NCBI GenBank assembly: GCA_964616495.1
Contig: CAZTRF010000003.1
Span: 1 to 45,970 of the forward strand
Length of the DNA: 45,970 bases
Direction of reading: 5' to 3'
Source of the DNA: an uncultured Muribaculaceae bacterium
GTDB lineage: Bacteria > Bacillota_I > Bacilli_A > RF39 > UBA660
Shown here: in pieces, positions 12,533-38,700 of the stretch
Layout of the letters: each line of letters begins with the position of its first letter
How positions within the stretch are numbered: the first letter of the stretch is position 1
Program-made: the position numbers and the translations under genes
Notes under the pieces: generated by a model
Database searches by the model: none
What the model was told of the DNA's origin: nothing
The model's input: the letters and a program-made list of their open reading frames with translations, nothing else

Positions 12533-12557
12533 AAAATATCTTAACAAGATATTTTTT
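12531..12557. terminator. Bidirectional terminator between convergent genes
   Basis: AAAATATCTT-AACA-AGATATTTT palindrome flanked by an A-run and a T-run. Confidence 0.65.
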
Positions 12558-21491: not shown

Positions 21492-21541
21492 ATAAACTCC
21501 TAGTCCCGTAATTATATCATTAAAAAAGAGAATATTTAATA

Positions 21542-21658: not shown

Positions 21659-21759
21659 TTAATCCCTCCAACTAAAACATTATAACATAATTTTACAATA
21701 ATGATTTAATTTTATTGAATAAGTTTGATTGTTTCTTTATAATTATAATAGGAGGAAGT

Positions 21760-23059: not shown

Positions 23060-23089
23060 ACTAGTATGGATAGTATTTGGAGGATGAAT

Positions 23090-24169
23090 ATGGAAGGGAG
23101 TGCTGTTTTTAACTATTTAAATTATAAAATTGATTGTTCATATACCTATTTCAAGATAATATGGGAGACATTAGAATCAAAAATAAAGCTTTCTCGAAAT
23201 AATCGAAAAATAGTTCATCAAATCATTAAATATATGTTAGCTAAGGGTGAATTAAAAGAATTATTTGAGGGAGAAGAAATATCTCGAAAATTAACAATCG
23301 AAACTAATAGTAAAATAGTTCAAAAGCAATCACTTTTAATTATAGCTGATTGTGCAACTTGTTTATCATCATATTCGTCTGACATTAAGTCCAATATTAC
23401 TTCAACTGAAGCAATAAAGAAAATCAAGATAAAGTTAGAAAAGGTTTATTCAACTGAAGAACTCGCTTATCTAAAAAAAGAAGAAAAAAAGTTAAAAAAA
23501 GCCTTTGCTGTTGAAAGAAAAACTTTAAAAAGATTTTGGAATAATACAACTAATGATGTTTTTGAAGTAATTTCTGTTCCGATTTTTGGAATAGATTTGA
23601 GTTCCAGCCAAATGATGGATACAAAGCTCAAATGGATGATTAAGGATATTGACAAGGAAAATAAGAATGCAGTAAACAAGATACTAGCCAAATATGGAAT
23701 ACAAGATGAACTTACTATCATTGCCCTTTATGAAATAGAGCTTTTATTGTTAAAGTCACTTAATAATAAAAAATATATTTCGAAGGTATTTGTTGATCTT
23801 AATGATGAGTTTTTTAAAAACAAAAAAAACATTATTAAGTTACAGCAAATAATGAATAGTAAATTTCTTAAATCTAAAATTAATTTAAGAATAAGTAGTT
23901 TTGTATTAGGTTCTTACAGTGATGAACTGTCTTTGCTAAAAGAAAAAGAATTTGAATTTTCTTTAAATGAAATGGTTAATATGGAAGAAAAAAGTCTAAA
24001 TAAAATGTTAACCTATTGTTTTGAAGAATATGAAAAAATCAAAAATAGCAAAGGAAACAAAGAATATTGCAAGAAAAACAATATTAATGTGGTTATTACA
24101 AATGTTAGTAATAACGACAAAATTGTGTTTTGTCAAAAGAATGTAGGTGATTTTTTTAGAAAAACATAA
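23090..24169 (+). CDS. Hypothetical cytoplasmic protein, first gene of fibre module 1
   Basis: The ORF is open from 23066. ATG 23090 is the best-placed start, 5 nt after GGAGGA. It has no signal peptide or TM helix and no family recognised. Confidence 0.6.
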   Translation: MEGSAVFNYLNYKIDCSYTYFKIIWETLESKIKLSRNNRKIVHQIIKYMLAKGELKELFEGEEISRKLTIETNSKIVQKQSLLIIADCATCLSSYSSDIKSNITSTEAIKKIKIKLEKVYSTEELAYLKKEEKKLKKAFAVERKTLKRFWNNTTNDVFEVISVPIFGIDLSSSQMMDTKLKWMIKDIDKENKNAVNKILAKYGIQDELTIIALYEIELLLLKSLNNKKYISKVFVDLNDEFFKNKKNIIKLQQIMNSKFLKSKINLRISSFVLGSYSDELSLLKEKEFEFSLNEMVNMEEKSLNKMLTYCFEEYEKIKNSKGNKEYCKKNNINVVITNVSNNDKIVFCQKNVGDFFRKT

Positions 24170-24183
24170 TTTAGCTACATGAA

Positions 24184-24894
24184 TTGGCGGTGATGGTTAT
24201 TAAGGAAAAATTGCAAGTTAAAATTAATGCGGAAAAGCTCTATAAAAGAAAACTCCTTACTAGAATATCTTCTTTAGTAGTAGCTTCATCTATGTTAATA
24301 TTGGGCATTTTATATGTTATGTTATACATAGTTAATAAGACTGGTAATTTTACGATAAGCCTAGATCCAAATTTAAAGACGACTAAGAATATAGTTATGT
24401 CTGAAACTTCTACTTTTGAAACTTCAAGCAGCATTTTAAAAGTCAAAGCTTTGGAGTATATGGATAACATTACCGAAAGTTGGATACCAACAACCGTTAC
24501 AATTGATGAAGGCGACCATAGTGCCAACGATTATTTGGCATATACCTTCTTTGTAAAAAATGAAGGGAAAGAAGCCGTTGATTATTATCGAGAGATAAGA
24601 ATTCAATCGGTAATAAAAAACGTTGATAAGGCTGTAAGAATAGCGCTGTATGTAAATGACGTAAAAACTGTATATGCAAAACTAGCTGAAAACGGTTTGC
24701 CAGAACCTGGAACAACACCATTTCTATCAAGAGACTTAATTTTAAAAGATGATCGAAATGATTTTAGACCGGAAGATGTTGATAAGTATACAGTTGTAGT
24801 TTGGCTAGAAGGGGAAGACCCTGAATGCGTTGACGATATCATTGGTGGCGAAATGAAAATGTTAATGCAAATTAAAGAACAAGTTGAAGAGTAA
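24184..24894 (+). CDS. Membrane-anchored TasA/camelysin-like paralogue (TapA-like anchor candidate)
   Basis: One TM helix (ISSLVVASSMLILGILYVMLYIV) with no YAWF motif. The body shares blocks with neighbouring paralogues: YLAYTFFVKNEG, AVRIALY and VVVWLEGEDPECVDD. The start is uncertain (TTG 24184, GTG 24190 or ATG 24193). Confidence 0.6.
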   Translation: MAVMVIKEKLQVKINAEKLYKRKLLTRISSLVVASSMLILGILYVMLYIVNKTGNFTISLDPNLKTTKNIVMSETSTFETSSSILKVKALEYMDNITESWIPTTVTIDEGDHSANDYLAYTFFVKNEGKEAVDYYREIRIQSVIKNVDKAVRIALYVNDVKTVYAKLAENGLPEPGTTPFLSRDLILKDDRNDFRPEDVDKYTVVVWLEGEDPECVDDIIGGEMKMLMQIKEQVEE

Positions 24895-24931
24895 TCTTCA
24901 AAAATACAAAGAAATAAAAGGAGAATAGAAA

Positions 24932-25942
24932 ATGAATAAGAAAAAATTATTATCTGCATTTTTGATGTTGCTGATTACAGCAGTAGCCCTAACCACAGCA
25001 TCATATGCATGGTTTACTGAGAATACTACTGTTACCGTTTCTGATTTGGATGTTCAAGTAGATGCAACTAATGGTATTCAGATTTCTACTGATGGTATTA
25101 CTTGGAAAACATCAATTGCAACAACTGATATTACAAGTGGGTATTCTTTTACTGCAGCTGATGAGAGTACGGTTACTGATACCAATCAGTTACCATCAAA
25201 ATTAGTTGCTGTATCTTCTGGTGGGGTGGTTACAACAACTGCTGGGGTTAATAAAGGAAAACTAGAACTATTTAGAGGCGCAATTGATTCAACAACTGGA
25301 ACAAACTATTTAACTTCAGAGGCAACTAGAGAAGCAAAAGGAACATCGGGAGATTTTATTGTATTTGATTTATTTATTCAAACAACAATTGCTGAAGATG
25401 TATATTTAAGCACTGGATCAAACGTTGTTGCAAAACAAGGAACTCAAGATAAAGGTCTTAAAAACGCTGCTCGAGTAGCTTTCTTAAATGAAGGCACTGT
25501 AGCTGTTGGTTCTTCTCAAGAAGCTATCACCACTCAAAGCGGTGCTACTACAGCATGGATATGGGAACCAAACAGTGATTTTCATACTGCCGCTGGTATA
25601 GCTAATTATGTAAGCGTATACGGAAATACTGGCGTTCCTACATCAACTACTATAATGGCAAATTATCCTGCATTTATCGCAGCATTTGCAGTAGGCGATC
25701 AGGTACCTTTAAGTGCTAATGCAACTACACATGCTACTGATTTTGCTACAGTAACACCAGATTTAAAAACACCTGTAACAATAGCTGCTTCATCACATTT
25801 ATTTGCGGCTGCAACAAAAATTCCAGCTGGAGTTACAAAACTAAGAATATATATGTGGGTTGAAGGACAAGATATAGATTGTGAAAACAATGCATCAGGA
25901 ACAGATATAACATTTAAATTACAATTATCAAAGACTGCTTAA
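24932..25942 (+). CDS. TasA/camelysin-superfamily secreted protein with a SipW-cognate signal peptide (candidate major fibre subunit)
   Basis: N-terminus MNKKKLLSAFLMLLITAVALTTASYAWFTEN (compare TasA ...GGGTWAAFND). Strong AAAGGAGAA RBS. The protein is Thr/Ala/Gly-rich and Lys-poor. C-terminal IYMWVEGQDIDCENN block. Confidence 0.75.
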   Translation: MNKKKLLSAFLMLLITAVALTTASYAWFTENTTVTVSDLDVQVDATNGIQISTDGITWKTSIATTDITSGYSFTAADESTVTDTNQLPSKLVAVSSGGVVTTTAGVNKGKLELFRGAIDSTTGTNYLTSEATREAKGTSGDFIVFDLFIQTTIAEDVYLSTGSNVVAKQGTQDKGLKNAARVAFLNEGTVAVGSSQEAITTQSGATTAWIWEPNSDFHTAAGIANYVSVYGNTGVPTSTTIMANYPAFIAAFAVGDQVPLSANATTHATDFATVTPDLKTPVTIAASSHLFAAATKIPAGVTKLRIYMWVEGQDIDCENNASGTDITFKLQLSKTA

Positions 25943-25973
25943 TGGCCGTCATAGATAGCAATGGGGTGAAATA

Positions 25974-26579
25974 ATGAAGAAAGAACCAAAGAAAATTTTA
26001 AAAGTAATTCTTAATGTATTACTATGGATTGTAATTTTAACAGCTGCCGGAGTTACGATAGTTTCTCTTAGTACAAAAGAAAAAGGAGTAGCTACGATAG
26101 GCGGTACAATTCCATATAGTATTCAGTCAGATTCTATGTACCCTACAATTAAAAAGGGAGATTTGATTATTACCAAAAAGTATGATAATGAAAAAACCAC
26201 TTTAAAAGTAGGAGATGTAATTTCATTCTTTGCTTTTGAAGAAGATACCAAAATTGTCAAAACTCACAGAATTACTGAAGTTAATGGAACTGAAACTAGT
26301 ATGGTTTCTTACACTACCAAAGGAGATAATAACTTAGCTGAAGATGAAGTTGAAGTGGCACCAGGAGATATTATTTCTGTATGGGAAGGAACTAGAATTG
26401 GAAAAGTAGGATACATTTTATCATTTTTAAAATCAAAATATGGTTTCTTAATTTGCATAATATTACCATTATTTGGGATATTTGCATATCAGCTTTATAA
26501 GTTTGTTGCACTTATAATTGATGAGAAAAAAAGAGAAGCTATTAGAGAAATAGAAAAAGCCAAAAAAATGGCTAGATAA
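25974..26579 (+). CDS. sipW: Signal peptidase I, SipW (ER/archaeal) type, copy 1
   Basis: N-terminal TM helix, SDSMYPTIKKGDLII (Ser box), KTHRI (His box), TKGDNNLAEDE and a C-terminal TM helix. Confidence 0.85.
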   Translation: MKKEPKKILKVILNVLLWIVILTAAGVTIVSLSTKEKGVATIGGTIPYSIQSDSMYPTIKKGDLIITKKYDNEKTTLKVGDVISFFAFEEDTKIVKTHRITEVNGTETSMVSYTTKGDNNLAEDEVEVAPGDIISVWEGTRIGKVGYILSFLKSKYGFLICIILPLFGIFAYQLYKFVALIIDEKKREAIREIEKAKKMAR

Positions 26580-26584
26580 AAGCG

Positions 26585-26615
26585 AAAAATCAATTTAGAA
26601 ATAAATTGATTTTTT
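26585..26615 (+). terminator. Rho-independent terminator ending module 1
   Basis: 13-bp stem AAAAATCAATTTA / TAAATTGATTTTT with loop GAAA and a T tail. Confidence 0.75.
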
Positions 26616-26649
26616 CATGGAATTATTTAGGAAAAATAGAGTTATTTTG

Positions 26650-26678
26650 TTGATATATGTCTAGTCAAATGATATAAT
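26650..26678 (+). promoter_or_regulatory. Sigma-A-type promoter of module 2
   Basis: TTGATA, a 17-nt spacer, then TATAAT. Confidence 0.55.
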
Positions 26679-26738
26679 TATTTATAGTGTAATGTATGAT
26701 AATACCCTACTTATACCAATAGTAAATGAGGCATTAAT

Positions 26739-28280
26739 ATGGATATGTTTGTTCGATTCTTATTTGATTTTTTATCCCAGCTCTTTTCAGGAGTGAAAAT
26801 GATTTTTTCAGGAATATTTGAAGGGCTATGGATGATGGTTGACATTCCGGCTTATATAGCAATTATAAAAGATTATAAATTAGAATTTACTGGTGGGCAT
26901 TGGGTCGCTGTTATTTTAGCAGCCTTAATAGTATTAGTTTTAATAGCCGGAATAATTTTACTGCTTTGGTTGCTATTAAGAAAATATGTTAGAATTAGAA
27001 AAAGTCTTGTAGAACAGGAAACTCTTTTAGAAGAAGTTGCTGAGTTAAATCGAAGCGTATTAACCCTTACTCAAGAGAAAGATAGAATTCTTGCAATGAA
27101 AGTTAGTCAATTGGGTCTAAAGCCTACTGATTCTCCAGAGCTTAGCCTTGAAGGAGAAAAAACTGATGGTGATACGAACGAGGTGGCTACTGAAGAAGGA
27201 GCAAGCCGATTCTTTAAACTTACTCAAATTGATGAAGCAATGAAAACCTATGTGGCTGAGCCATCAAATAACGATTATACATTAGAAAGCTTGTGCGATA
27301 CAATTCGTAACTATGCCGCTAGTCAAATGAGACTTTATTATAAAATTAAAATAATTAGATTGTTTATAGCTTCATTAGCTTCTTCAAGATTAATTATTTT
27401 ACAAGGTATATCTGGAACTGGTAAAACTTCTTTGCCTTATTGCATTGGTAAGTTCTTAAGCAATGATGCTATTATTGCTTCGGTTCAACCATCATGGCGT
27501 GATCGTACCGAGTTATTTGGGTACTTTAACGAATTTACAAAAAAATTCAATGAAACTGAAGTTTTAAGAGCAATGTATGAGGCAACATATGTTGATAAAA
27601 TTTATTTAACTATTTTGGATGAAATGAACATTGCCCGTGTTGAATATTATTTTGCGGAAATGCTATCTATTTTGGAAATGCCTAGTAGAGATGAATGGAT
27701 TATCGATTTAGTACCAAATCCTTGGCCAAATGATCCGATAAAAATGCCTGGTGGTAAATTAAAACTTCCTGATAACATGTGGTATATCGGAACCATCAAC
27801 AACGATGACTCAACATTTATGGTTACCGATAAAGTTTATGACCGTGCTATGCCAATAAATATTAATGAAAAAGGGGCCCCTTTTGAAGCACCGGTAACAG
27901 AAGGAATGAATTTAAGTAGTAAGTTCTTAGAAAGTTTATTTCAAGAGGCTTATCAGAAACATCCGGTAAGTCAAGAATGCTTAGACAAAATTGAACTTAT
28001 GGATGACTATGTTATTGAACATTTTAGATTAGCGTTTGGTAACCGTATTGTTAAACAACTAAAAGATTTTGTTCCAGCTTATGTTGCTTGTGGTGGTACA
28101 GAAATTGATGGAGTTGACTATTTAATAGCCAATAAGATATTAAGAAAATTTGAACAATTAAATTTAGCGTTCATACGAGATGAAGTAGATGGCTTTATTA
28201 AATTTCTAGATAAAGAATTTGGTAAAGAAAATATGGGCGAATGTAAAGATTATTTAAATAGATTAAAAAGAATGATGTAA
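26739..28280 (+). CDS. Membrane-anchored McrB-like AAA+ (AAA_5) NTPase
   Basis: 513 aa. TM helix WVAVILAALIVLVLIAGIILLLWLLL, a coiled-coil stretch, an acidic linker and then an AAA+ core: Walker A GISGTGKTS (nt 27405-27431), VQPSWRDRTELFGYFN, Walker B and the McrB signature LTILDEMNIARVEYYFAEMLSILE, and WYIGTINNDDSTFMVTDKVYDRA. Confidence 0.75.
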   Translation: MDMFVRFLFDFLSQLFSGVKMIFSGIFEGLWMMVDIPAYIAIIKDYKLEFTGGHWVAVILAALIVLVLIAGIILLLWLLLRKYVRIRKSLVEQETLLEEVAELNRSVLTLTQEKDRILAMKVSQLGLKPTDSPELSLEGEKTDGDTNEVATEEGASRFFKLTQIDEAMKTYVAEPSNNDYTLESLCDTIRNYAASQMRLYYKIKIIRLFIASLASSRLIILQGISGTGKTSLPYCIGKFLSNDAIIASVQPSWRDRTELFGYFNEFTKKFNETEVLRAMYEATYVDKIYLTILDEMNIARVEYYFAEMLSILEMPSRDEWIIDLVPNPWPNDPIKMPGGKLKLPDNMWYIGTINNDDSTFMVTDKVYDRAMPININEKGAPFEAPVTEGMNLSSKFLESLFQEAYQKHPVSQECLDKIELMDDYVIEHFRLAFGNRIVKQLKDFVPAYVACGGTEIDGVDYLIANKILRKFEQLNLAFIRDEVDGFIKFLDKEFGKENMGECKDYLNRLKRMM

Positions 28281-28290
28281 GGAGAGGACT

Positions 28291-29418
28291 ATGGAAGACA
28301 ATAAATTCTTTTCAATTGTTAATAACATTGGCGAAGATTCTATAGAGTCTTTCCTAGAACGAAACAGTTCACAAACAAATGTTACAATTGATTATGAAAA
28401 AATAGAATTTGATTATTCGTGGTTAGAAAAAATAGAGATTACTATTCCCTATTTGGATAATATAGTTAGAAATCCCAAACGATTTATTATGCAAGAGGAA
28501 GAAATAGTACCGGTCGAAAAGGCTAGAAAAATAACCGTTGAAACAGTAAAGCATCTGGCTACTCATACTAATCTAATTCAAGATATTAGTGATGAAGGAG
28601 ATATAACTCCTAGTCATTTATTAAATATTCATAAAGAAGAAAGCTTTGATATTTATGAAAATCGATTTATTTATTCTTTACTAGTAAATTTGCAAATGTT
28701 TATAAAAAGAAGGTCAGAAGTTTCGGCTTCAGGATCAAGCTGTAAATCGTATAAAAAGTTAAATTATATAGGAGAAACAGTAATTGGGGATGAAAAAGTA
28801 AAAATGTCGGTAGACTTAGAAGCCAATAATTACGATGATCTCGTTAATAAAGATGTTAGTAAATTAAGCTTATCTGATCGTATTGGCAGAGTTTCTTTAA
28901 TAGTTAGTGACTTTATGAAAAGTGCTTTTATTAGAGATTTAACCAGTGGCCAAATTCAACCGGTTAGGTCACCAATTACTAAAACAAACACTATTTTAAA
29001 AAACACCAACTTTCAAAAAGCACTGGAATTATGGGAATTTATTGAAAGATATGATGTGAATTCCAAGTCGGAGAAAAAAGATAATCGTTCTTTTGAAGAC
29101 AAAGGCGAAATAAAAGACAACATGGATATGAGTTTTTTAGTTAATTATTTAATTTTAAACGATGCTTTTGAAGGAACTAAGCCTCAAGCACAAGCCGTTA
29201 AGAAATATTATTTAACTAAGGTTATTAAAGATTTTGTTGATAAGAATGACATGGATCAAAAAGAATTTATTAAACTATTAAGTGAAGAATTTAATATTTT
29301 AAATAAAGAAAAATTGGTTAAAGAAAAATATTTTGTTGATTTGTTTAAAAAGGCCATTAAGAAATATTATAATCATCGTAAAAATTTGCTTAAAAAAATT
29401 GTTATAAAGGTGACTTAA
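28291..29418 (+). CDS. McrC N-terminal / DUF2357-like partner protein with no recognisable nuclease motif
   Basis: Starts 10 nt after the AAA+ gene. SFDIYENRFIYSLLVNLQMFIKRR and NTNFQKALELWEFIERY resemble the DUF2357/McrC N-terminal region. I see no PD-(D/E)xK pattern. The C-terminus is Lys-rich, and the stop overlaps the next ATG (TAATG). Confidence 0.55.
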   Translation: MEDNKFFSIVNNIGEDSIESFLERNSSQTNVTIDYEKIEFDYSWLEKIEITIPYLDNIVRNPKRFIMQEEEIVPVEKARKITVETVKHLATHTNLIQDISDEGDITPSHLLNIHKEESFDIYENRFIYSLLVNLQMFIKRRSEVSASGSSCKSYKKLNYIGETVIGDEKVKMSVDLEANNYDDLVNKDVSKLSLSDRIGRVSLIVSDFMKSAFIRDLTSGQIQPVRSPITKTNTILKNTNFQKALELWEFIERYDVNSKSEKKDNRSFEDKGEIKDNMDMSFLVNYLILNDAFEGTKPQAQAVKKYYLTKVIKDFVDKNDMDQKEFIKLLSEEFNILNKEKLVKEKYFVDLFKKAIKKYYNHRKNLLKKIVIKVT

Positions 29419-30551
29419 TGAGCAGAGAGTCTAAGAAAAAGATTTTTGGAGGAATGATAAAACTAATTGGAATATTAATAGGATTTTATATTGCTAGTTA
29501 TGCCTGGTTTAATAGCAATGAAGAAACTAGATTAGGAAATATTGAGATAGGCACTGATAAATTTAACAAAGTATATATGTCTATAGATGAGGGGACTACT
29601 TGGGATACATCGTTAGATGTTAATATTACTAATAATTTTAAATTTAGTAATGAAGTTACTAGTGATGGAGTTAGCTTTTACAAAGCAGCTAATAAAAGAG
29701 ATGATGGTACTCCAATATCATTTAGAGCAGCAACTGCTAATTCGGATTATTTTGAATTTAATGTTTGGTTTAAAGCTGAACAGAATTCCGGGATATTCCT
29801 AGATCAATCTTCTTCTATTGAACCGGAAGTTGGAACTGGAGCTGAGGTGTTAATTGGAAATACAGCTTTAAATATTAGTGGATATGGCCCTTTTAGCAAA
29901 GATTTAATAGCCGGAGGAGTAAGGGTAGCATTTATCAAAAATGATTTGGTAAATGATGAATATGTACCCAAAGTTAACACTCAAATGGTATGGGCTCCTA
30001 ATAAAGGATATGAAATAGTCTATAGCAATGATAGTTATAGTGCTTACTTGAATTCAAGTAATATTCAAAACTATAATTATGTTGACCCCACTGAGCAAGC
30101 ATATTATGTAGAAAAAAGAGTGCCTAATATAAAGGATAACTTAAGGGCAAATGATACTACTTTTAATGCTTATGGAGATCCAACATTGGTTTATATAAAT
30201 AATGATGAAACACCTAATGATATTGAGGTAATGACAATAAGAATTTGGGTAGAAGGAAATGACCGAGATGCTATTTCAGCTCTTAAAGGCGGCAATTTCA
30301 TAATGAAAATGAAATTTGTGTCGATAATGAAAGAACCTAATACAGGCACTCCAATGGTAACGGCTGATACTACTGATAATATTATAAATGATTTTGCAGA
30401 AGGAATGGAATATTCAATAGACTATGGTAACAATTGGATAGGATATGATATTACCCCTAATCCTCAATTTGATTCTTCAACTACTGTTTGGGTAAGATAT
30501 ATTGAAAATGCGACTAGATTTGCATCAGAAAAAACGATTTTGAGCTTTTAG
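29418..30551 (+). CDS. TasA/camelysin-like secreted protein with a SipW-cognate signal and a C-terminal extra domain
   Basis: GILIGFYIASYAWFNSNEE, plus blocks DYFEFNVWFKAEQ, GGVRVAFIKND and IRIWVEGNDRDAIS. A roughly 75-aa C-terminal extension carries MEYSIDYGNNW...TVWVRYIE. Confidence 0.7.
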   Translation: MSRESKKKIFGGMIKLIGILIGFYIASYAWFNSNEETRLGNIEIGTDKFNKVYMSIDEGTTWDTSLDVNITNNFKFSNEVTSDGVSFYKAANKRDDGTPISFRAATANSDYFEFNVWFKAEQNSGIFLDQSSSIEPEVGTGAEVLIGNTALNISGYGPFSKDLIAGGVRVAFIKNDLVNDEYVPKVNTQMVWAPNKGYEIVYSNDSYSAYLNSSNIQNYNYVDPTEQAYYVEKRVPNIKDNLRANDTTFNAYGDPTLVYINNDETPNDIEVMTIRIWVEGNDRDAISALKGGNFIMKMKFVSIMKEPNTGTPMVTADTTDNIINDFAEGMEYSIDYGNNWIGYDITPNPQFDSSTTVWVRYIENATRFASEKTILSF

Positions 30552-30564
30552 AAAGGAAAGTAAC

Positions 30565-31611
30565 ATGAATAGAAAACTAATTATAAAATTAGTTACGATT
30601 GTTGAAATACTAGTTCTTTTTGGAATTGGATCTTATGCATGGTTTGCTGATAAAAGTAGTCCTACTATTTCTCAAAACAATTTTCGTGTTACTTCAGCTG
30701 AAGGGCTAAACATAAAACTAGCCATAGATAGTGCTAGTAGAACAACTATTAACTTAAATGTATTGTTTGCTGATTTTGGATTATTTGAAATAAAACAAGT
30801 TTCTTCAGCTGATGCTATTAACTTTTTTACAATTGATTTTGGAGCCGGTCTATCATATACCAATCCTCGTTATGTTCAACTGCTACCTAATGCATATGGC
30901 CAAATTGATATGGTTGACTATGGTTATATTGAGCATACCTTTTATCTTCAAACTGAAGATTTTGGAAAGCATGTTTATTTTCATAAAGATACCGCCATTA
31001 CAGGAGTGGCAGCCGATGCCATGAGAGTATCATTATCTTATAATATTGATAGCCAAGATTATGTTTATATTTTTGGAACTGAAGAAGAAAATGGAGTTAT
31101 AGGATATACAACTGCAGCGGTAGTAGATGAAGGAGAATTTACATATTCCAGTCCTGATCCTAGTCTTTTAGGTAATCAAACAGTTTATACTTTTGCTAGT
31201 AAAAATGGGGGAAGAGGAACTAGTGATGATGATCCAATCGATTTGGCAAAAACTTTATTTACAATACAACCTAACTCAATTCTTCCAGTAACTATTAAAA
31301 TATGGCTGGAAGGCGGAGATGATGATTGTGATAACACTTTAGCGGATAGCGCGTTAGATGTAATTATAAAATTTGGTAGTGCAAATCAATTATTAGATCC
31401 ACCACTTGTAACACCAAATAACCAATTCTTAACTATTAATGGGCTAACTACCGATATGCAATATGCCTTTACTAATACTTCTGACACCATATGGGCAACA
31501 GTAACTAACACTGGTATTACCTTTAACAATGGTCAAACAGTTTATGTAAGAATAGCGGAGGTTCCGGGGGTAAGCCCTGCTTCACATCCAGCTGTTGTAA
31601 CATTTAACTAG
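30565..31611 (+). CDS. TasA/camelysin-like secreted protein with a SipW-cognate signal and a C-terminal extra domain
   Basis: LFGIGSYAWFADKSS, plus blocks GYIEHTFYLQTED, DAMRVSLSYN and IKIWLEGGDDDCDNT. The C-terminal extension carries MQYAFTNTSDTIW...TVYVRIAE. Confidence 0.7.
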   Translation: MNRKLIIKLVTIVEILVLFGIGSYAWFADKSSPTISQNNFRVTSAEGLNIKLAIDSASRTTINLNVLFADFGLFEIKQVSSADAINFFTIDFGAGLSYTNPRYVQLLPNAYGQIDMVDYGYIEHTFYLQTEDFGKHVYFHKDTAITGVAADAMRVSLSYNIDSQDYVYIFGTEEENGVIGYTTAAVVDEGEFTYSSPDPSLLGNQTVYTFASKNGGRGTSDDDPIDLAKTLFTIQPNSILPVTIKIWLEGGDDDCDNTLADSALDVIIKFGSANQLLDPPLVTPNNQFLTINGLTTDMQYAFTNTSDTIWATVTNTGITFNNGQTVYVRIAEVPGVSPASHPAVVTFN

Positions 31612-31618
31612 GTGAAAT

Positions 31619-32194
31619 ATGAAAGAAGGTCGAAAAAAACAATTAAATATCTACTTAAACATCTGTTTATTATTATTAATAGGGGTAGCAACCTACTCAT
31701 GGATGCTAACTGAACCTGAAGTAGGCGAGAATTTACGCTATCAAAGGAACTTAATTATTAGCTCTAGTACAATTTCAGTCAAAATATATGAGTATGTTGA
31801 TAATGAATATGTTGAAATTTTAAATTCTCCTTTTGATATCAAATATGTAGCTCCGGGAGTAAATACTCAGTTTAAGTTTGAAATTTCTAATAATAAAAAT
31901 TATACTACTTCTACTAACATTATTTTTTCGGGTATTACCGGGGACATTGCAGCTCTTAGTGATAATTTATATTTTAATACAACTAGTCCAACAGCAATTA
32001 GCAAAAATTTAGGTAGAGATATTATATACAATGCAACTTCAGATGTTTATTACATGGTATTTTTAAGAAATTTCCAAGTACCAGCTAATCAAACAATTTC
32101 GGTATATTGGAATGTAAATATCGATGAAAGAGCCGCTAATGAAGTGGCGAGTAAAATGTTAACAATTGATCATATTGCATTTATAAAACCATAG
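31619..32194 (+). CDS. Short TasA/camelysin-like secreted protein (minor subunit candidate)
   Basis: LLLIGVATYSWMLTEPE signal variant. The FKFEISNNKNY block recalls the TasA-type f-x-f-x-N-x-G strand. Confidence 0.55.
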   Translation: MKEGRKKQLNIYLNICLLLLIGVATYSWMLTEPEVGENLRYQRNLIISSSTISVKIYEYVDNEYVEILNSPFDIKYVAPGVNTQFKFEISNNKNYTTSTNIIFSGITGDIAALSDNLYFNTTSPTAISKNLGRDIIYNATSDVYYMVFLRNFQVPANQTISVYWNVNIDERAANEVASKMLTIDHIAFIKP

Positions 32195-32207
32195 AAGGAG
32201 AGAAAAC

Positions 32208-32762
32208 ATGCTAAAATTTTTAAAAGATAAAAAAGATTTACTTATTAAGATATTAGAAATAGTAGTTTTAGTATTAATATCTCTTTTTTGTGTAATAAGT
32301 TTATATCAAAAAATATTTAACAATGCTCCAGTTTTTGGTCATCGAGTATTTGTCATAGTTTCTGATAGTATGAAACCCGTTTTAAAAAAGAATGATGTCA
32401 TTTTGGTTAAAGAAACTAAACCAGAAGATATAGAAATCGGAGATATTATTACCTATCAAGGAATGCAAAGCGAAATGGCTGATAAGATTATTACCCATGA
32501 GGTAGTCAATATTACAAGAGAAAATGGTAAATATATTTTCTATACGAGAGGAAGAGCTAATACGGGTATTGATCCCGCTGTTTATGAAGAACAATTATAT
32601 GGGGTAATGACCAGTAAATTGGCTGTAATAAGTTTTATAAGTCGAATAGTTAGAAGCACTATTGGATTTATATTGGTAATTGCCATTCCTCTTTGTTATT
32701 TATTTATTACAGAAATAATAGATGTTAAAAAAGAAATGAAATTAAAAAAAGAAACCAATTAA
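32208..32762 (+). CDS. sipW: Signal peptidase I, SipW type, copy 2 (divergent box E)
   Basis: VSDSMKPVLKKNDVILV (Ser box) and ITHEV (His box). It has TRGRANTGIDP where copy 1 has TKGDNNLAEDE. TM helices at both the N- and C-terminus. Confidence 0.8.
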   Translation: MLKFLKDKKDLLIKILEIVVLVLISLFCVISLYQKIFNNAPVFGHRVFVIVSDSMKPVLKKNDVILVKETKPEDIEIGDIITYQGMQSEMADKIITHEVVNITRENGKYIFYTRGRANTGIDPAVYEEQLYGVMTSKLAVISFISRIVRSTIGFILVIAIPLCYLFITEIIDVKKEMKLKKETN

Positions 32763-32794
32763 AAACTGATTAATGTAGAGAAAGGAGGATAAGA

Positions 32795-35700
32795 ATGCAA
32801 AAGAAATTAAATAAATCTATTAGAAATTATTATTACAAGAAAAATTATCGAGATTTTATTTTAAATAAAAATCCTTTAGTATTGTTTAAAAACTTAAAAA
32901 AGTTATTATTTCCAGGATTTAGCAAATTAGAAGATTTAAAAGATAAGCCTAAGGCCATTAAAAAAGCTTTAACTTTTGAAAAAAGAACTTATTTAAAATT
33001 TGCTGTTATTATTGCTATTCTTGTCTTTACTTTCTCTAATTCATTTTCATGGTTATATGAATATTATCTTAGTCATGGCTCATTAATTACCACTGGAGAA
33101 ATTAGTCATGAAATTATTGAATATGATGATACAGGAGCTGCCTTATTAGAAGATTCTATTACTCATACCTTGATTTATGAAACTAATATGAGTAATGTAA
33201 CTAAATCCACAAAGTTTTTAGAGGTTCGTAATACTGGAACTCTAGATATGGAATATAGTGTTTCATTCTCTTTAGAAGGAACCATTGAAGTGTCGGGAAT
33301 AATGTTTTATCGTATTTATGATATAACTAGCGAAGTTAATAATGAAACAATTTCAGCAACTTATCCTACCAGATTACAGGCTTATGCCGCTAACAATCCA
33401 ATAGATCCAGCTTTAGAAACTGATACTACAAAACCAGTTTCTAATATGAGTTTACTTAATAATTTAATTGTTACAGGAACTGTGGAAGTAAATAATGATC
33501 CAACCTTAAATTCTAAATATTATCGTATTGATTATGGCATGTATACGGGAGTCACAACTACGGCCTATCAAGATGATTCTTTTTCAGTTCATTTAAATGT
33601 ATATTCTTCTCAAGTGGGAACCATTTCTAATTCAGCTAATTCTCATATATGGGAAGTTAGTACCGAAACTCAATTACGTGAAGTTTTATTATCATCAAAT
33701 TCAGGTGATACCATTAGACTGATTGATGATATTTCGATAGCTGGTAATTTAGCTATATCAAAAAGAATTAATTTAGATACCAATGATTATATTTTAAATA
33801 TAGCTGGAGATTTAATTTATGATTTTGTTAACTTAGGCAATTTAACTATTGATGTTTCTGGAGAAGGACGTATTAGGGTTGGAAATAACTTTAATATGAC
33901 CGTTCCTAAGGCATCTGTCCATATTATAGGAAATGACAAAAATTATGACTTCTTTGTCGGAGGCACTGTAACTTGGAATGCAATTCAAGATGGTGAAAAT
34001 GATGGTATTTTGTTAGAAAATGTTAATTTTGTCAGTAGTACTCAAACCTTAATGCCAATTAATGTTAATTTATTATCTAATACCAGACTTACTTTAGCTC
34101 CGGGGGTTAGATTAGGATTTGTTTATGCTAATCAAGGGTCAACCAATATTGAAGTTATCAACAATGGTATTATTACGCAATTGCAATTTCAAGATATGAA
34201 TTTACTTGCTACCTTTACTAAAGCACAAATTTACGTTTATAATTTAGGTACTATTTTAGGAGTTGAAGGATCTACTGGTATTCTTTTACCAACAACATCT
34301 ACTCCTTATTTGGGCCCTAATAATGGTAATACTTTAATCGTTAGAGGTATCACATCATCGGATATTACTGTATCTGGATCTCAAAATTACACTCTTATTG
34401 ATATTCAAAATAATTATACTAATTCATCGGTTATTCCTTATAATGTGGTCCCTAATGTAGAGCCGGATTCTTATATGGTCTACATAAGAGAAAATAATGT
34501 TTCGGTAGAAAGTTTATTAACTGAATATTTTGAACAAAGAAACGTTGTTAGTGCTTCAGCAAGCATAACTGGTATTAAGAATTTAATGATTTATACCCTA
34601 AATGCTCAATATGTTGAAAATGAAGATTTCGCATTCTTTAAGAGCACCCGAATTCCAAATTTAGAATATCTAAATTTAGAAAATTCTCGTATTAAAGATG
34701 ATTCTAATGGAACAACTGTTTACAACAAAATTGTAGATGGAGCTATGGAAGGAAAAACCAGTCTAAAAACCTTATTACTTCCTAATACATTAATTGAAAT
34801 AGGAGATTATGCCTTTAATGGAATAGTTTTAGGACATTTATCTAATTTATCATCAGAATCATTTAGTTTTATTACTATTCCTGAGACAGTAGAGGAAATA
34901 GGAGACTATGCCTTCTATAATGCTGAATATGTAAAAATGAGATCAGCTAATGTTCCAACACTTTATGCACATAGCTTTAATACAAGTAATAGCGGTGCTA
35001 AGTATTTTGTTCCTCATGGAAGTATATCTACCTATCAAGAAAACCAATATATTAACGAAATTAATGTTCACGAAACTGCTGATTTATCTGATAATAGGCG
35101 TTACTTCCTTTATGATAGTATCAATGGTGGATATGGAATTTCTTATAATGTTAATAACTTAAATACTTCTACTACTTTAGGTATTCCAGGAACAGAAATT
35201 TATAATGGAACAGAAAAAAATATTACTGCTATCGGAACTTCTGCATATCGTGATTTATCAATAACAAATGCTGAAGGAGTAGCTTTGATTTTGGAGAGCA
35301 CAGTTGCTAAAATAGATGCTTACGCTTTCTATGACTTAAATATTAAATCGGCCTCATTTAGTAGTATTACCGAAGTGGGAGACTATGCTTTTTATAGTGT
35401 GCCTTTAGCTAGAGTTTTTGGAAATAATATTACTAAAATAGGAAATTATGCTTTTTATGAAAGTGGAATAACTAATCTTTCATTAGGCAATATTTCTTCA
35501 ATAGGAAATTATGCCTTTACTAATAATTTATCATTAACTGAAATTGATTTAGGAAATATTAGAACAATAGGAAATTATGCTTTTTCTAATTGTCAATCTA
35601 TTACTAAGGCAACTTTTGATACCATTGAAACCGAAATAGTAAACAATGCTGAAGAAATGAATATTCAACTTGGAACAAATGCTTTAGTGGGAAATTGGGG

Positions 35701-38700
35701 TAGTTATACCGATGGGCGTCTTAGAATCTATGTTCCAAATGGTTTAAGCTCTAATAATGTCAGTTATTTATCTCTTTATAAAAAATTACTTCCTAATGTA
35801 GCTCAATATGTATATCAACAAGGCCTTAATTCAACTATAGCTCAATATGGATATCCATTAGGAACTGATTCTGATACCACTTATACCCATTTAATGGTTC
35901 CTTTTGTTTTTAATGATTATACAGTTAAAGAGGTAAGTTTAACTAATAAAAATGGTAACAGCGTTACCGGATGGGAAATAATTTCATATCAGGGAGCTGA
36001 TTTAAATAATAGTTATGATATTCCTAATAGTATTACTGCTGGCCCTAATAATATTACTTATCCAGTTATTTCGATTGGAGAAGGGGCTTATCGCAATGTT
36101 AATATTGAAACTGACCATATTATTGAAATAGATAATTCTAATTTACTTAAAATAGGTTCTTATGCTTTTTATAATTTAGAGTTAAAAACCATTCATACTC
36201 CTGAAGTTTTACAAATAGGTTCTTATGCTTTTAGTGGAACCAGTTTGGAAGTAGCCCGTTTTGAAAACCTTCAAGTTTTAGGGGATTATGCCTTAACTAG
36301 TATTACTAACTTATATAGTTTAAATATTGGTAAAGTTGCTTTGATGGGATATAATTGTATTTCAGATAATGCTAACTTAGAGCAATTGTTTATTAATAAT
36401 ACAGACTTAAATATCGTATTAAATGGGTCACCATTTGCTAATATTGGAACCAATAGTAATGAACGTCTTAGAATTTATGTTCCAGATAGTACAACCTCCC
36501 TTACATATTATAAAAATTTAATTTCAGAATATGCCGATTACATTTATCCAACCGGAACTATTATTGGTTCTTTCGTTAATGGATCTCTTTATTATGATAT
36601 TGGAGAGTATACGGTTAAAGAGGTTACTTTAAATAATTATGCTAATGAGAGTGTTACGGGATGGGAAATAATTGAGTATCATGGAGCCAATTTATCTAGT
36701 TCCTTTGATATAGCAACTAATTTAACAGCTATTACATCAAACTTAACAGCTTCGGTGGTTAAGGTTGGAAACAATGGCAATGTTTATCAGTATGCAGTTA
36801 CGATTACCAATAATGGTAATACTGGTGTTAGTTCATGGAAAATGAATATGACTTTGCCTTCAAGTGTTACTTATAATTCAGTTTCTAATGCTTTGGTAAC
36901 TAATAATACTACTAGCTTATATATTAGAAATACACCTTCAAATGCAGTAATAGCTGCTGGAGGGACAGCAACGTTTACCATTTACTTAGAGACTTTAATT
37001 ACAAGTTATATGCCATATTTTTCTGATGTTAATGTTACCAATCCAACTGGAACAACTCTTCCGGTAATCTCAGTTGGAAATTATGCCTTTATTCATACTA
37101 TTTCGGAACAAGATGCTAGTATTAATATTACTAATGATAATCTTTTATCAATAGGTATAGATGCTTTTAGAAATATAACCAATATTAAATCTTTAATTTT
37201 AAATGAAGTGTTAACTGTAGGTAGTGGAGCCTTTTATAATAATGCAACCATTGAAACAGTGACTTTCAATCATTTAAATGAAATTAGAGCTAATGCTTTC
37301 GGTAATTCATCAAGATTGTTTAATATTAATTTTGGCAAAGTTACTATTATGGACGCTAATGTTTTAACAAATGCCCCTTATCTAGAACAGGTGTTCTTTG
37401 ATGTTAGACATGTTAACTTAGCTATTGATTATCAATCAATTAATAACGTTGGTTCTCAAGCCAATAATCGTTTAAGATTCTATGTTACTGATGGCACTGA
37501 CACTAATAATATTCCTTATGTTAACACTTATAGAGATTTATTTTTGAATGAATATAAAGACTATTTTTATCCAAAAGGATATATAATTGGAAATTATTCA
37601 CAACCTAATAGTCCTTTTGTTATAGGAGATTATTCGGTTAGAGAAGTAACCGTTAAAGATAAAGACAACAATGATGTGACGGGATGGGAATTTATTGAAT
37701 ATCATGGTGCTGATTTATCCGGAGCATATAATTTCCCGGATGAGGCAACTTATATTAGCAGTACTATATCGGGAGTATTAAGATATAATAGATCTTGGAA
37801 TAACAACGTGACTTATAACGATGAATATTATGTTGATATTTATAATAATGGAACGCTTCCTACAACTTCATGGCAATTTGATCTTGACTATTCATCAGGA
37901 GCTACTGTCACAACATATAGTTGTAATAAAGTAAATGGAGCTAATGGTTTAACTATTACCAATGCCAGTTGGAATAAAACAATTGCTGTAGGAGAATTTG
38001 AAAGTTGTCAGGTTATTATATCTTATTCAAGCCCTGATATTTATGCTTCGATTAGTAATGTTAGACAGGCATCAGATGCTCAAATTACCAATCCGATTGT
38101 TGTGATTGGAGATTATGCCTTTAGTCATGCTTTATCTAATTCTAATACAAGTTTTGATATCATTAATAATGATTTAATTTATATTGGCGATTCAGCTTTT
38201 GATAATTTTACCGGGGCAGTTAATTTATCATCTACCGGAGTTATTGAAGTAGGAGAATATGCCTTTAGAGGCAATCATCTTCAAACTATTAATTTACCTA
38301 ATTTAGTTACTTTAGGACAATATGCTTTTGCTAATAATCCGAACTTATATTATGCTAATTTAGGCAAGACCACTTCTTTACCAAGCAGTGTCTTAGCCGG
38401 AGCAGTTAATTTAACCCAGTTATTCTTAAATAATACCACAATTCCAAATGGATCAACATCTATGAATCTAGCTATTGGAGAAAATGCTTTATTGAATGTT
38501 GGGCAAAATATGGACCAAAGATTTAGAATATATGTTCCGGCTGGAAGTATACCAGGAGCTCAAAATAATTTAACCTATGTAACAGCATACAAAAACACTT
38601 TACCATCATCATTTAGCTTATATATTTATGAAACTGGAACCCTAATAGGAGATAACTACAATCATGGTAGTATTCCTTATGTTATTAAAGAATATATGGT

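What the first reader, a model, noticed from the sequence alone, without database searches (positions are those of the whole stretch)
26739..29418. Membrane-tethered McrB-like AAA+ NTPase plus McrC-like partner without a recognisable nuclease, translationally coupled to fibre genes: a possibly exapted McrBC motor
The 513-aa protein has an unmistakable McrB/AAA_5 core: GISGTGKTS, VQPSWRDRTELFGYFN, LTILDEMNIARVEYYFAEMLSILE and WYIGTINNDDS…DRA. Where McrB has its DNA-reading N-terminal domain, this protein has an amphipathic N-terminus, one strong TM helix (WVAVILAALIVLVLIAGIILLLWLLL), a coiled coil and an acidic linker. The next ORF, 10 nt downstream, has DUF2357/McrC-N-like motifs (DIYENRFIYSLLVNL, ALELWEFIERY) but I see no PD-(D/E)xK signature. 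Its stop codon overlaps the start of the first TasA-like gene of module 2 (TAATG at 29416-29420). A membrane anchor, the apparent absence of a nuclease and operon coupling to SipW substrates all argue against a classical restriction role. They suggest an NTP-driven function in fibre subunit extraction, assembly or sensing at the membrane. Alternatively this is a novel membrane-associated defence module nested in the cluster.
Basis: partly seen in the sequence, partly recalled or inferred. Interest (0 to 1): 0.85.

Follow-up and report, generated by a model that had tools for sequence, protein, structure and literature searches.

The report
Membrane-anchored McrBC-like motor in fibre cluster
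A relative of the McrBC restriction motor has lost its DNA-reading domain and its nuclease, gained a membrane anchor, and sits inside a cluster of secreted surface-protein genes in many gut Firmicutes; the class was named "CoCoPALM" in 2024 but nobody has tested what it does.

Summary
Window 26739-28280 encodes a 513-aa protein with one strong transmembrane helix and a McrB-type AAA+ core. Window 28291-29418 encodes a 375-aa DUF2357 (McrC N-terminal domain) protein with no detectable PD-(D/E)xK nuclease. Its stop codon overlaps the next start (TAATG).

The GTPase carries the invariant N-x-D signature of the "NxD" McrB branch. In 82 non-redundant related loci, SipW lies within three genes in 76. 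The McrC-like gene follows directly in 74, usually tightly packed against a SipW or secreted-protein gene. No nuclease, methyltransferase or defence family recurs nearby. The GTPase is the best-conserved gene of the cluster (median 60% identity).

This matches the CoCoPALM class that Bell et al. (eLife 2024) named in one paragraph and left for later. It is therefore a new member of a known but uncharacterised kind.

Three points were added here:
- A third cytoplasmic family, tightly packed against the GTPase gene in 53 loci; window 23066-24169 is a weak member.
- A subclade that sits next to Tad-like pilus genes instead of SipW.
- The neighbours' "TasA-like" label is not supported by sequence or fold.

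A GTP-driven role in export or assembly of the secreted proteins is the best inference. It is untested.

The parts
26739..28280 (+). McrB-like AAA+ GTPase of the NxD branch, 513 aa. It has an amphipathic N-terminus (residues 1-54), a TM helix, a helical stalk, an acidic linker, an AAA+ core and a lid.
   Evidence: ORF with a GAGG ribosome-binding site. PDB McrB 7.7e-5; PADLOC PDC-M26A 1.8e-38. More than 8000 full-length homologues at 64-78% identity.
26901..26978 (+). Transmembrane helix, residues 55-80, followed by RKYVRIRK. By the positive-inside rule the AAA+ domain is cytoplasmic.
   Evidence: KD mean 3.51. Sequence. One or two TM helices are conserved in the closest relatives.
27405..27431 (+). 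Walker A motif, GISGTGKTS.
   Evidence: G223, G226, G228, K229 and T230 are invariant in alignment A2. The motif aligns to the McrB P-loop.
27609..27629 (+). Walker B motif, TILDEMN (D294, E295).
   Evidence: D294 is invariant and E295 nearly invariant. The motif aligns to IIDEINR of E. coli McrB.
27789..27818 (+). GTPase signature GTINNDDSTF. N354-x-D356 is invariant and D357 varies (D/E/Q). This is the NxD variant of the McrB NxxD motif.
   Evidence: Alignment A2 invariants T352, N354, D356, S358, T359. The definition of the NxD branch is in PMC11090510.
28291..29418 (+). McrC-like partner, 375 aa. It has the DUF2357 (McrC N-terminal) domain but no nuclease. Its C-terminal half is helical and ends in a roughly 50-residue helix.
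   Evidence: Pfam DUF2357 2.8e-11, residues 40-149. Alignment A1. AF2 model pLDDT 76.6. No PDB fold or sequence match to nucleases.
23066..24169 (+). Cytoplasmic 367-aa protein. It is a weak member of a conserved family ('c5') that in most related loci lies directly upstream of the McrB-like gene, a few nt away. It is a probable third component.
   Evidence: jackhmmer from the L093 homologue reaches the window ORF at 4.8e-5. hmmsearch 1.6e-3 and hhalign probability 70%. The c5-to-McrB-like gap has a median of 8 nt in 53 loci.
25974..26579 (+). SipW-type (archaeal/ER-type) signal peptidase I, copy 1.
   Evidence: NCBIfam TIGR02228 scores 85.6 bits against a cut-off of 51.85. The SipW equivalog model gives 1.6e-27 but scores below its own cut-off.
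26584..26615 (+). AT-rich 14-bp hairpin whose 3' arm ends in a run of six U, after sipW copy 1. It is a candidate intrinsic terminator.
   Evidence: Free energy -11.3 kcal/mol, z=-4.0 against shuffles. The simple terminator scan did not list it because the stem has too few G-C pairs.
26650..26678 (+). Best sigma-70-like promoter match of the 19-kb region: TTGATA, 17-nt spacer, TATAAT with an extended -10 TG. It lies 61 nt upstream of the McrB-like start.
   Evidence: 11 of 12 matches, the top hit. The total number of promoter-like sites is not above shuffles, so this is a candidate only.
24184..25942 (+). Two secreted or membrane-anchored beta-rich paralogues (236 aa and 336 aa) upstream of SipW copy 1. 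These are putative SipW substrates.
   Evidence: N-terminal TM; the 336-aa protein also carries SYAWF. C-terminal W-x-E-G-x-D-x-(D/E)-C motif. AF2 model of the 336-aa protein has pLDDT 84 and is beta-rich.
29418..32194 (+). Three further paralogues or putative SipW substrates (377, 348 and 191 aa). The start codon of the first shares one base with the stop codon of the McrC-like gene.
   Evidence: The 377-aa protein has a DUF4073 C-terminal domain.
32208..32762 (+). SipW-type signal peptidase I, copy 2.
   Evidence: TIGR02228 scores 80.7 bits against a cut-off of 51.85.
32795..40768 (+). Giant surface protein of 2657 aa with BspA-type LRR_5 repeats and CBM_2 domains. Its N-terminal TM is followed by SFSWLYEY. 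It is the last gene of the same-strand run.
   Evidence: Pfam LRR_5 1.5e-111 and CBM_2 1.4e-11. N-terminus.

Best explanation

What is shown:
- It is an NxD-type McrB-like GTPase. Its DNA-binding N-domain is replaced by a membrane anchor and stalk.
- Its partner is a McrC-like protein that keeps the McrB-engaging N-terminal domain (DUF2357) but has no nuclease.
- The pair belongs genetically to a SipW signal-peptidase and secreted-protein cluster, not to a restriction or defence locus.
- A third cytoplasmic protein family usually lies a few nt upstream of the pair. In the window this is ORF 23066-24169.

What is inferred from McrBC structures:
- The GTPase forms a hexameric ring held under the cytoplasmic membrane by 6-12 TM helices.
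- The McrC-like protein inserts into the ring and stimulates sequential GTP hydrolysis.
- With no nuclease and no DNA reader, the hydrolysis cycle is used as a mechanical or gating step at the inner face of the membrane. That step would serve export, SipW processing, or polymerisation and anchoring of the co-encoded surface proteins: the small beta-rich subunits and the giant LRR adhesin.
For: Identity:
- McrB-type core.
- Invariant N354-x-D356 followed by D/E, exactly as the NxD branch is defined.
- TM helix.
- DUF2357 partner with no nuclease.
- The published description of CoCoPALM matches feature by feature.

Linkage:
- At least 590 species-level genomes carry a relative.
- In 82 non-redundant loci, SipW lies within 3 genes in 76 and the McrC-like gene is the next gene in 74.
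- The gene after the McrC-like gene is SipW in 48 loci and a secreted paralogue in 9. Gaps are mostly -34 to +12 nt.
- Gene order around the pair varies between at least four arrangements, yet the pair stays inside the cluster.
- The chromosomal flanks differ and are housekeeping genes.

Conservation:
- The GTPase has a median identity of 60% to the window protein.
- The partner has 38%, SipW 33% and the secreted proteins 25-39%.
- This is the pattern of a conserved cytoplasmic machine serving variable exposed subunits.

Window:
- A candidate terminator and the best promoter match lie between sipW copy 1 and the GTPase gene.
- The pair would therefore head the operon that continues into three secreted proteins, sipW copy 2 and the giant adhesin.

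A divergent subclade places the three-gene unit next to Tad-like pilus genes: RcpC/CpaB, a T2SSE ATPase, and a protein with a GASYAFFT signal.
Against: - There is no experimental evidence of any kind.
- The secreted neighbours are not shown to form fibres. They have no sequence or significant fold match to TasA, camelysin or archaeal bundling pilins.
- As far as I know, the B. subtilis tapA-sipW-tasA operon encodes no NTPase. SipW-dependent fibres therefore do not in general need such a motor.
- In the Tad-linked subclade an assembly ATPase is already present, and most of those loci have no SipW within 10 kb. The module's job may therefore be regulatory or protective rather than a direct assembly motor.
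- The nearest characterised or predicted relatives are conflict systems: CoCoNuT, PADLOC candidate PDC-M26 and McrBC.
- The coiled coil, the hexamer, the ring insertion and the GTP specificity are all untested here.
Confidence: 0.55

Rival explanations
1. It is a membrane-associated defence or conflict module that guards the fibre. The McrBC-derived sensor, anchored at the fibre base, would detect phage adsorption or DNA entry through the surface structure. It would then trigger a response through an unrecognised effector, such as the third protein, the roughly 425-aa protein of the subclade, or membrane disruption.
For: The GTPase belongs to the NxD branch, whose other members are predicted defence systems (CoCoNuT). 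Its best library hit is the PADLOC candidate PDC-M26A. Surface fibres are common phage receptors (general knowledge). The cluster has higher GC than its flanks, and the flanks differ between genomes, which is compatible with mobility.
Against: No nuclease or other recognisable effector is present in the pair. The partner has no PADLOC hit. No RM or defence family recurs among the neighbours. The GTPase is unusually well conserved across the sampled genomes, 56-67% identity to the window protein, whereas defence genes are typically patchy and fast-evolving. The pair is tightly packed against, and often overlaps, genes for secreted proteins or SipW.
Confidence: 0.15
2. It is a GTP-dependent regulatory switch or checkpoint rather than a motor. 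The membrane-anchored ring and its partner would control when SipW processes its substrates, or couple fibre production to cell state. They would do this by binding the cytoplasmic N-terminal tails of the pre-proteins or SipW, without doing mechanical work.
For: The subclade with its own Tad-like ATPase still keeps the three-gene unit. As far as I know, SipW fibres elsewhere need no NTPase. Relatives with a roughly 280-aa extracytoplasmic N-domain (P0250, P0253) or 4-5 TM helices look like signal-receiving architectures.
Against: All catalytic motifs of a hydrolysing McrB are invariant: Walker A, Walker B, N-x-D and R369. The stimulatory partner is strictly retained, being the next gene in 74 of 82 loci. 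This fits a cycling machine, although a switch also needs hydrolysis. Sequence alone cannot separate a switch from a motor.
Confidence: 0.2
3. It is a cell-envelope or division factor unrelated to the secreted proteins. The FtsB-like TM plus coiled-coil N-terminus would tie the ring to the divisome or to peptidoglycan synthesis.
For: Bell et al. report homology of the N-terminal region to FtsB. One divergent locus (L085) lies directly upstream of ftsI, mraY, ftsW, murG and ftsQ.
Against: Only one locus shows that neighbourhood. The related locus L086 does not. 76 of 82 loci are SipW-linked. Pfam finds no FtsB/DivIC domain in the window protein even at E<=10.
Confidence: 0.05

Closest known systems
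[quoted passage not shown]
   Same: An NxD-motif McrB-like GTPase; an N-terminal transmembrane plus helical region in place of a DNA-binding domain; a McrC homologue with DUF2357; association with signal-peptidase-family genes; occurrence in Bacillota.
   Different: The window's partner is the short form (375 aa). It has only a terminal long helix rather than an extended coiled coil. Long forms of 550-940 aa occur in related loci. The published description is one paragraph, so finer comparison is impossible. It does not mention the third gene family or the Tad-linked subclade.
Classical McrBC type IV restriction enzyme (E. coli McrB/McrC; PDB 6hz4, 6ut6, 7vsr)
   Same: An AAA+ GTPase core with Walker A, Walker B, a sensor Asn and an Arg, alignable over about 200 residues. 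A partner with the McrC N-terminal domain. The two genes are adjacent and in the same order.
   Different: There is no N-terminal DNA-binding domain; a TM anchor replaces it. The signature is NxD, not NxxD. The partner has no PD-(D/E)xK nuclease. The genomic context is secreted proteins, not restriction or defence genes.
CoCoNuT systems and PADLOC candidate PDC-M26
   Same: The same NxD GTPase branch. PDC-M26A is the best profile hit (1.8e-38). The McrC homologues often lack an active nuclease.
   Different: CoCoNuT GTPases are soluble and carry long N-terminal coiled coils. They are always accompanied by HEPN or other nucleases. Here there is a TM anchor and no nuclease. The window protein matches PDC-M26A only over the AAA+ core (profile positions 301-435 of 724), and the partner matches no PADLOC model.
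tapA-sipW-tasA and other SipW-dependent matrix-fibre operons (B. subtilis TasA, B. cereus CalY, C. perfringens BsaA; archaeal bundling pili)
   Same: A dedicated archaeal-type signal peptidase is encoded next to several secreted proteins whose signal peptides end in an aromatic-rich motif (SYAWF here). The mature parts are predicted to be beta-rich.
   Different: As far as I know, those operons encode no NTPase. The window's secreted proteins show no sequence or significant fold similarity to TasA or AbpA.
Type IV / Tad pilus assembly ATPases (PilB, CpaF/TadA) with their membrane platform
   Same: This is only a functional analogy: a cytoplasmic hexameric NTPase at the membrane, encoded with pre-proteins that carry N-terminal membrane anchors cleaved by a dedicated peptidase. 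In one subclade the module sits next to real Tad-like genes.
   Different: There is no homology. It is an AAA+ McrB-type GTPase rather than a RecA-like T2SSE ATPase, the peptidase class differs, and no PilC/TadB-like platform is encoded in the window.

Membership tests
CoCoPALM (Bell et al. 2024) | McrB-like GTPase with the NxD (not NxxD) signature, usually followed by D or E | tested here: met
   N354 and D356 are invariant in 31 diverse members, and position 357 is D, E or Q. The pairwise alignment to E. coli McrB could also be read as N-x-x-D357, but family conservation marks D356.
CoCoPALM (Bell et al. 2024) | GTPase fused to an FtsB-like transmembrane plus coiled-coil N-terminal region | tested here: inconclusive
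   The TM helix is clear. The helical heptad-like stretch at residues 85-125 is not above shuffles in a crude score. No FtsB/DivIC Pfam hit appears at E<=10. HHpred-level comparison with FtsB was not possible.
CoCoPALM (Bell et al. 2024) | Association with signal-peptidase-family genes | tested here: met
   Two SipW genes flank the pair's operon in the window. SipW lies within 3 genes in 76 of 82 related loci.
CoCoPALM (Bell et al. 2024) | McrC homologue present, usually with a fused coiled coil | tested here: met
   DUF2357 at 2.8e-11. The window form has only a predicted helix at residues 323-374. Long forms of 550-940 aa occur in related loci. The paper says 'usually', so this is not strict.
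Classical McrBC type IV restriction system | McrB N-terminal DNA-binding (modified-base reading) domain | tested here: not met
   Residues 1-160 are an amphipathic segment, a TM helix, a helical stalk and an acidic linker. No DNA-binding domain appears in Pfam or NCBIfam.
Classical McrBC type IV restriction system | McrC C-terminal PD-(D/E)xK endonuclease | tested here: not met
   There is no conserved D...(D/E)xK and no nuclease Pfam domain. The C-terminal half of the AF2 model is helical, and no nuclease fold match is listed.
Classical McrBC type IV restriction system | AAA+ GTPase core with Walker A/B and the NxxD signature, plus a McrC N-terminal domain partner encoded next to it | tested here: inconclusive
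   The core and the partner are present. The signature is the shortened NxD.
CoCoNuT (coiled-coil nuclease tandem) | Close association with HEPN or other nuclease genes when McrC lacks an active nuclease | tested here: not met
   No nuclease domain is found in the window cluster. None is among the 25 most recurrent Pfam families of 126 neighbour families.
TasA / camelysin (Peptidase_M73) fibre subunits, for the neighbouring genes | Sequence or fold homology to TasA, CalY or AbpA | tested here: not met
   A profile of 34 members gives no PDB hit to TasA at E<=10 and no Pfam family. Foldseek with the pLDDT-84 model finds nothing at E<=0.001; AbpA (7ueg) ranks 34th with E=0.7. Only the signal-peptide motif and the SipW adjacency resemble TasA.
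SipW-type signal peptidase I, for 25974-26579 and 32208-32762 | Match to the archaeal/ER-type signal peptidase I model above its cut-off | tested here: met
   TIGR02228 scores 85.6 and 80.7 bits against a cut-off of 51.85.

The most novel reading that the evidence does not exclude
Three components would together form a previously uncharacterised GTP-driven machine for biogenesis of SipW-processed surface fibres and adhesins in Gram-positive gut bacteria: the membrane-anchored NxD GTPase ring, its nuclease-less McrC-like shaft, and the third cytoplasmic protein. This would be a new class of pilus or adhesin assembly apparatus, distinct from the sortase, type IV/Tad, chaperone-usher and curli pathways, and built by exaptation of a restriction-enzyme motor.
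Probability: 0.3. Interest if true: 0.85.

Novelty: new member of a known kind. Interest (0 to 1): 0.55.

Why it matters
McrBC is the textbook GTP-dependent restriction motor. A version stripped of DNA reader and nuclease and bolted to the membrane would show how a defence motor can be recruited for cell-surface biogenesis. This version sits inside surface-protein clusters in at least 590 species-level genomes, and the 80 listed are largely uncultured gut and rumen Bacillota.

It would also give the first energy-consuming component for SipW-dependent fibres, which are currently thought to assemble without one.

The proteins are annotated only as 'hypothetical' or 'DUF2357' in public records, and standard Pfam annotation misses the GTPase. 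The family is therefore invisible in routine annotation of gut metagenomes.

The class has been named but never described in detail or tested. The anatomy, the third gene family and the linkage statistics given here make it directly testable.

Tried and rejected
- Sequence and profile searches of the partner against the PDB found nothing relevant.
- Foldseek of the partner model against the PDB gave only spurious TolC and capping-protein matches and no McrC hit. Family membership therefore rests on Pfam DUF2357 and on gene pairing.
- The test of 'TasA-like' for the neighbours was negative in all three forms: profile against the PDB, Pfam on 34 members, and AF2 plus Foldseek.
- The third protein family gave only a weak, implausible VPS28 hit in the PDB and nothing in Pfam.
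- Rfam found no RNA family in 22-33 kb.
- The crude heptad test for the coiled coil was not significant.
- A literature search for PDC-M26 found no papers.
- Searches for a follow-up on CoCoPALM found none. The supplements of the eLife paper that are held as text do not mention it.
- The single SipW-plus-McrB paper hit was an E. coli strain genotype.
- I considered that the pair is a chance insertion of a defence module into the cluster. I rejected this because of the conserved linkage across four or more gene orders and many lineages.
- P0003 (646 aa) looked like a new architecture, but it carries an internal duplication and is probably an assembly artefact.


Full report
**1. The observation**

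- Both have good ribosome-binding sites. The gap between them is 10 nt.
- The partner's TAA shares its last A with the ATG of the next gene, giving TAATG at 29416-29420.
- All quoted motifs are present.
- The hydrophobic segment at residues 55-80 has a Kyte-Doolittle mean of 3.51 and is followed by RKYVRIRK. By the positive-inside rule this puts the AAA+ domain in the cytoplasm; that step is an inference.

The McrB relationship is genuine, but routine annotation misses it.
- Pfam AAA_5 reaches only E=0.049.
- NCBIfam McrB gives 1.3e-4.
- Solved E. coli McrB chains give 7.7e-5 over residues 207-407. Walker A, Walker B (ILDEMN against IIDEIN) and the sensor motif are in register.
- PADLOC's candidate PDC-M26A gives 1.8e-38.

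The partner passes Pfam's threshold for DUF2357 (2.8e-11). The CoCoNuT paper equates this domain with the McrC N-terminal domain.

**2. No nuclease**

- An alignment of 32 partner homologues (36-63% identity) has invariant residues only in the N-terminal half and in a 225-255 block. No D...(D/E)xK pattern is conserved.
- The AF2 model has mean pLDDT 76.6. Its C-terminal half is helical and ends in a helix at residues 323-374. It also has a long beta-hairpin at 150-183.
- The most conserved segment, residues 66-116, has low confidence. That is what one expects of an element that folds only against a partner, but this is an inference.
- Foldseek against the PDB finds nothing at E<=0.001 and no nuclease among the 50 listed matches.
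- Long partner forms (709-941 aa) from related loci carry either DUF2357 alone or no Pfam domain.

**3. What family it is**

The GTPase has more than 8000 full-length homologues at 64-78% identity. In the 50%-identity library it has 8329 cluster representatives at E<=1e-3, and 774 at E<=1e-30.

Among the best 150 there are three architectures:
- 1-2 TM helices (this one);
- 4-5 TM helices;
- long soluble N-termini that match PDC-M26A beyond the AAA+ core.

In an alignment of 31 diverse TM-type members, T352, N354, D356, S358 and T359 are invariant, while residue 357 is D, E or Q. This is the N-x-D signature followed by D/E that Bell et al. use to define the NxD branch of McrB GTPases.

The same paper describes 'another large clade' with these features:
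- the GTPase is fused to an FtsB-like transmembrane and coiled-coil region;
- coiled coils are usually present on both subunits.

The paper names this clade CoCoPALM and defers it to a forthcoming publication. No other paper in the library uses the name or describes the system. The finding is therefore a member of a named but uncharacterised class.

**4. Genomic linkage**

The 80 best are MAGs labelled Bacilli, Mycoplasmatota/Tenericutes, Erysipelotrichaceae, Clostridia, Oscillospiraceae, Acutalibacteraceae and Christensenellaceae, among others. The host or sample sources named in the record titles include human gut, goat, sheep, roe deer and horse. These labels are as the records give them.

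I called ORFs in all loci and labelled them by iterative searches seeded with the window's proteins. Of 82 non-redundant loci:
- SipW lies within three genes in 76;
- the McrC-like gene is the next gene in 74;
- the gene after it is SipW in 48 and a secreted paralogue in 9;
- gaps to that next gene are mostly -34 to +12 nt.

At least four gene orders occur, yet the pair always lies inside the cluster. Within six genes either side of the GTPase gene across about 100 loci, SipW (166), the secreted paralogues (188) and three further small families dominate.

The 126 remaining neighbour families are heterogeneous housekeeping genes such as RuvB, acetate kinase, GerA, SpoIVA, PBP and FtsW. No Pfam family recurs in more than three of them. 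None of the 25 most recurrent families (of 116 matched) is a restriction, methylation or nuclease family.

The GTPase is the best-conserved gene of the cluster. Median best identity to the window protein is 60%. The corresponding figures are 38% for the partner, 33% for SipW and 25-39% for the secreted proteins.

**5. The window's operon structure**

After sipW copy 1 there is a 14-bp AT-rich hairpin (-11.3 kcal/mol, z=-4.0). The best sigma-70-like match of the 19-kb region follows at 26650-26678: TTGATA, a 17-nt spacer, and TATAAT with an extended -10 TG.

Both are candidates only. If real, the pair heads a transcription unit that runs through three secreted proteins, sipW copy 2 and a 2657-aa BspA-LRR/CBM_2 protein. 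The organism is a spore former (GerA/B/C). The cluster lies between ordinary chromosomal genes.

**6.

(a) A third gene family. A cytoplasmic family of about 330-380 aa lies directly upstream of the GTPase gene in 53 loci, with a median gap of 8 nt. The window's 367-aa ORF at 23066-24169 is a weak member: jackhmmer 4.8e-5, hmmsearch 1.6e-3, hhalign probability 70%. In the window it is separated from the pair by two secreted-protein genes and sipW copy 1. Its function is unknown.

(b) A divergent subclade. In human-gut metagenomes the unit is third gene, GTPase, partner and a protein of about 425 aa. Most of these loci have no SipW within 10 kb. In six of them the unit is directly preceded by an RcpC/CpaB protein, a T2SSE ATPase (8e-30), two polytopic membrane proteins and a protein with a GASYAFFT signal. 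That is a Tad-like pilus cluster.

(c) The neighbours are not demonstrably TasA-like.
- A 34-member profile finds no TasA in the PDB and no Pfam family.
- A confident AF2 model (pLDDT 84, pTM 0.84) is beta-rich.
- That model has no significant PDB match. The archaeal bundling pilin AbpA ranks 34th with E=0.7.
- What the neighbours share is an N-terminal membrane anchor ending in SYAWF-like motifs and a C-terminal W-x-E-G-x-D-x-(D/E)-C motif.

**7. Mechanism**

Shown: a McrB-type GTPase with all catalytic motifs conserved, anchored in the membrane; a conserved McrC-type partner without a nuclease; and genetic dedication to SipW or pilus-type clusters.

Inferred from published McrBC structures (PDB 6hz4, 6ut6, 7vsr; named from knowledge): a hexameric ring with the partner inserted as the hydrolysis-stimulating element.

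Inferred from context:
- the cycle drives or gates a step in export, processing, polymerisation or anchoring of the co-encoded surface proteins;
- the ring's N-terminal face and the partner's conserved element would point at the membrane.

I put about 0.55 on 'CoCoPALM member with a non-restriction role serving the secreted-protein cluster'. I put about 0.3 on the specific 'assembly motor' reading.

Two facts keep a regulatory (0.2) or protective (0.15) role alive. As far as I know, the B. subtilis tapA-sipW-tasA operon encodes no NTPase. And the Tad-linked subclade has its own ATPase.

**8. Verdict**

Novelty: a new member of a known, named but uncharacterised kind.

Interest is moderate to high. 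The exaptation of a restriction motor is surprising to specialists and is now easy to test, but it has already been flagged in print.

Noticed in passing
window 24000-40000 against the flanks: The cluster has GC 0.29-0.34, while the flanking sequence has 0.22-0.27. Related clusters sit in different housekeeping contexts in different genomes. The whole cluster may move horizontally among gut Firmicutes, or the difference may reflect the Thr/Gly/Ala-rich secreted proteins.
   Followed up: partly
window 23066-24169 (+): This 367-aa cytoplasmic ORF has no Pfam, NCBIfam or PADLOC hit. It is a weak member of a family that lies directly upstream of the McrB-like gene, a median of 8 nt away, in 53 related loci. 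It is a probable third subunit of unknown function.
   Followed up: yes
L093 4689-8358 (also L095, L096, L099, L100, L101): A Tad-like pilus gene set lies directly upstream of the three-gene unit in a divergent subclade without adjacent SipW. It comprises RcpC/CpaB, a T2SSE ATPase and two polytopic membrane proteins. Nearby are a GASYAFFT-signal protein and a DUF5411 plus Peptidase_C39_2 protein.
   Followed up: partly
L085 9117-10388, L093 12621-13904 and relatives: A conserved protein of about 425 aa follows the McrC-like gene in the divergent subclade (14 loci). It is absent from the window, and the L093/L095 representative has no Pfam match.
   Followed up: partly
window 24184-25942 and 29418-32194: Four of the five small secreted proteins are paralogues of one family. 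Three of them carry a SYAWF-type motif after the N-terminal TM helix. All four share the conserved motif W-x-E-G-x-D-x-(D/E)-C or a variant of it; it is C-terminal in the 236- and 336-aa proteins. W309, E311, G312 and D314 are invariant and C317 is nearly invariant in alignment A4. The predicted fold is beta-rich and has no significant PDB match.
   Followed up: partly
window 32795-40768 (+): This 2657-aa protein has ten LRR_5 (BspA-type) matches and two CBM_2 matches. Its 70-residue basic N-terminal tail is followed by a TM helix and SFSWLYEY, which resembles the signal motif of the small paralogues. It may be a SipW-processed adhesin.
   Followed up: no
window 20667-22965: A sortase on the minus strand (20667-21491) and a TMEM43-family membrane protein (21715-22965) border the cluster. 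They recur rarely in related loci: sortase was labelled in only 3 ORFs across all loci.
   Followed up: partly
window 8995-12978: An HTH_36 protein, a large serine recombinase (9755-11347), a LysM amidase and a cell-wall hydrolase lie together. This may be the remnant of an integrative element or prophage.
   Followed up: no
proteins P0285, P0292, P0314 and others; P0250, P0253: Some relatives of the GTPase have a 4-5 TM polytopic N-terminal domain. Others have a roughly 280-aa extracytoplasmic domain between a signal-like helix and the TM anchor. Their genomic contexts were not examined.
   Followed up: no
L004 10001-11941 (P0003): This 646-aa homologue contains an internal repeat of about 130 residues of its own AAA+ region. 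It is probably an assembly artefact. Its partner is an 848-aa coiled-coil form.
   Followed up: partly
L085 10437-17104: One divergent locus lies immediately upstream of the division and cell-wall cluster: ftsI-like PBP, mraY, ftsW, murG and ftsQ. The related locus L086 does not.
   Followed up: partly
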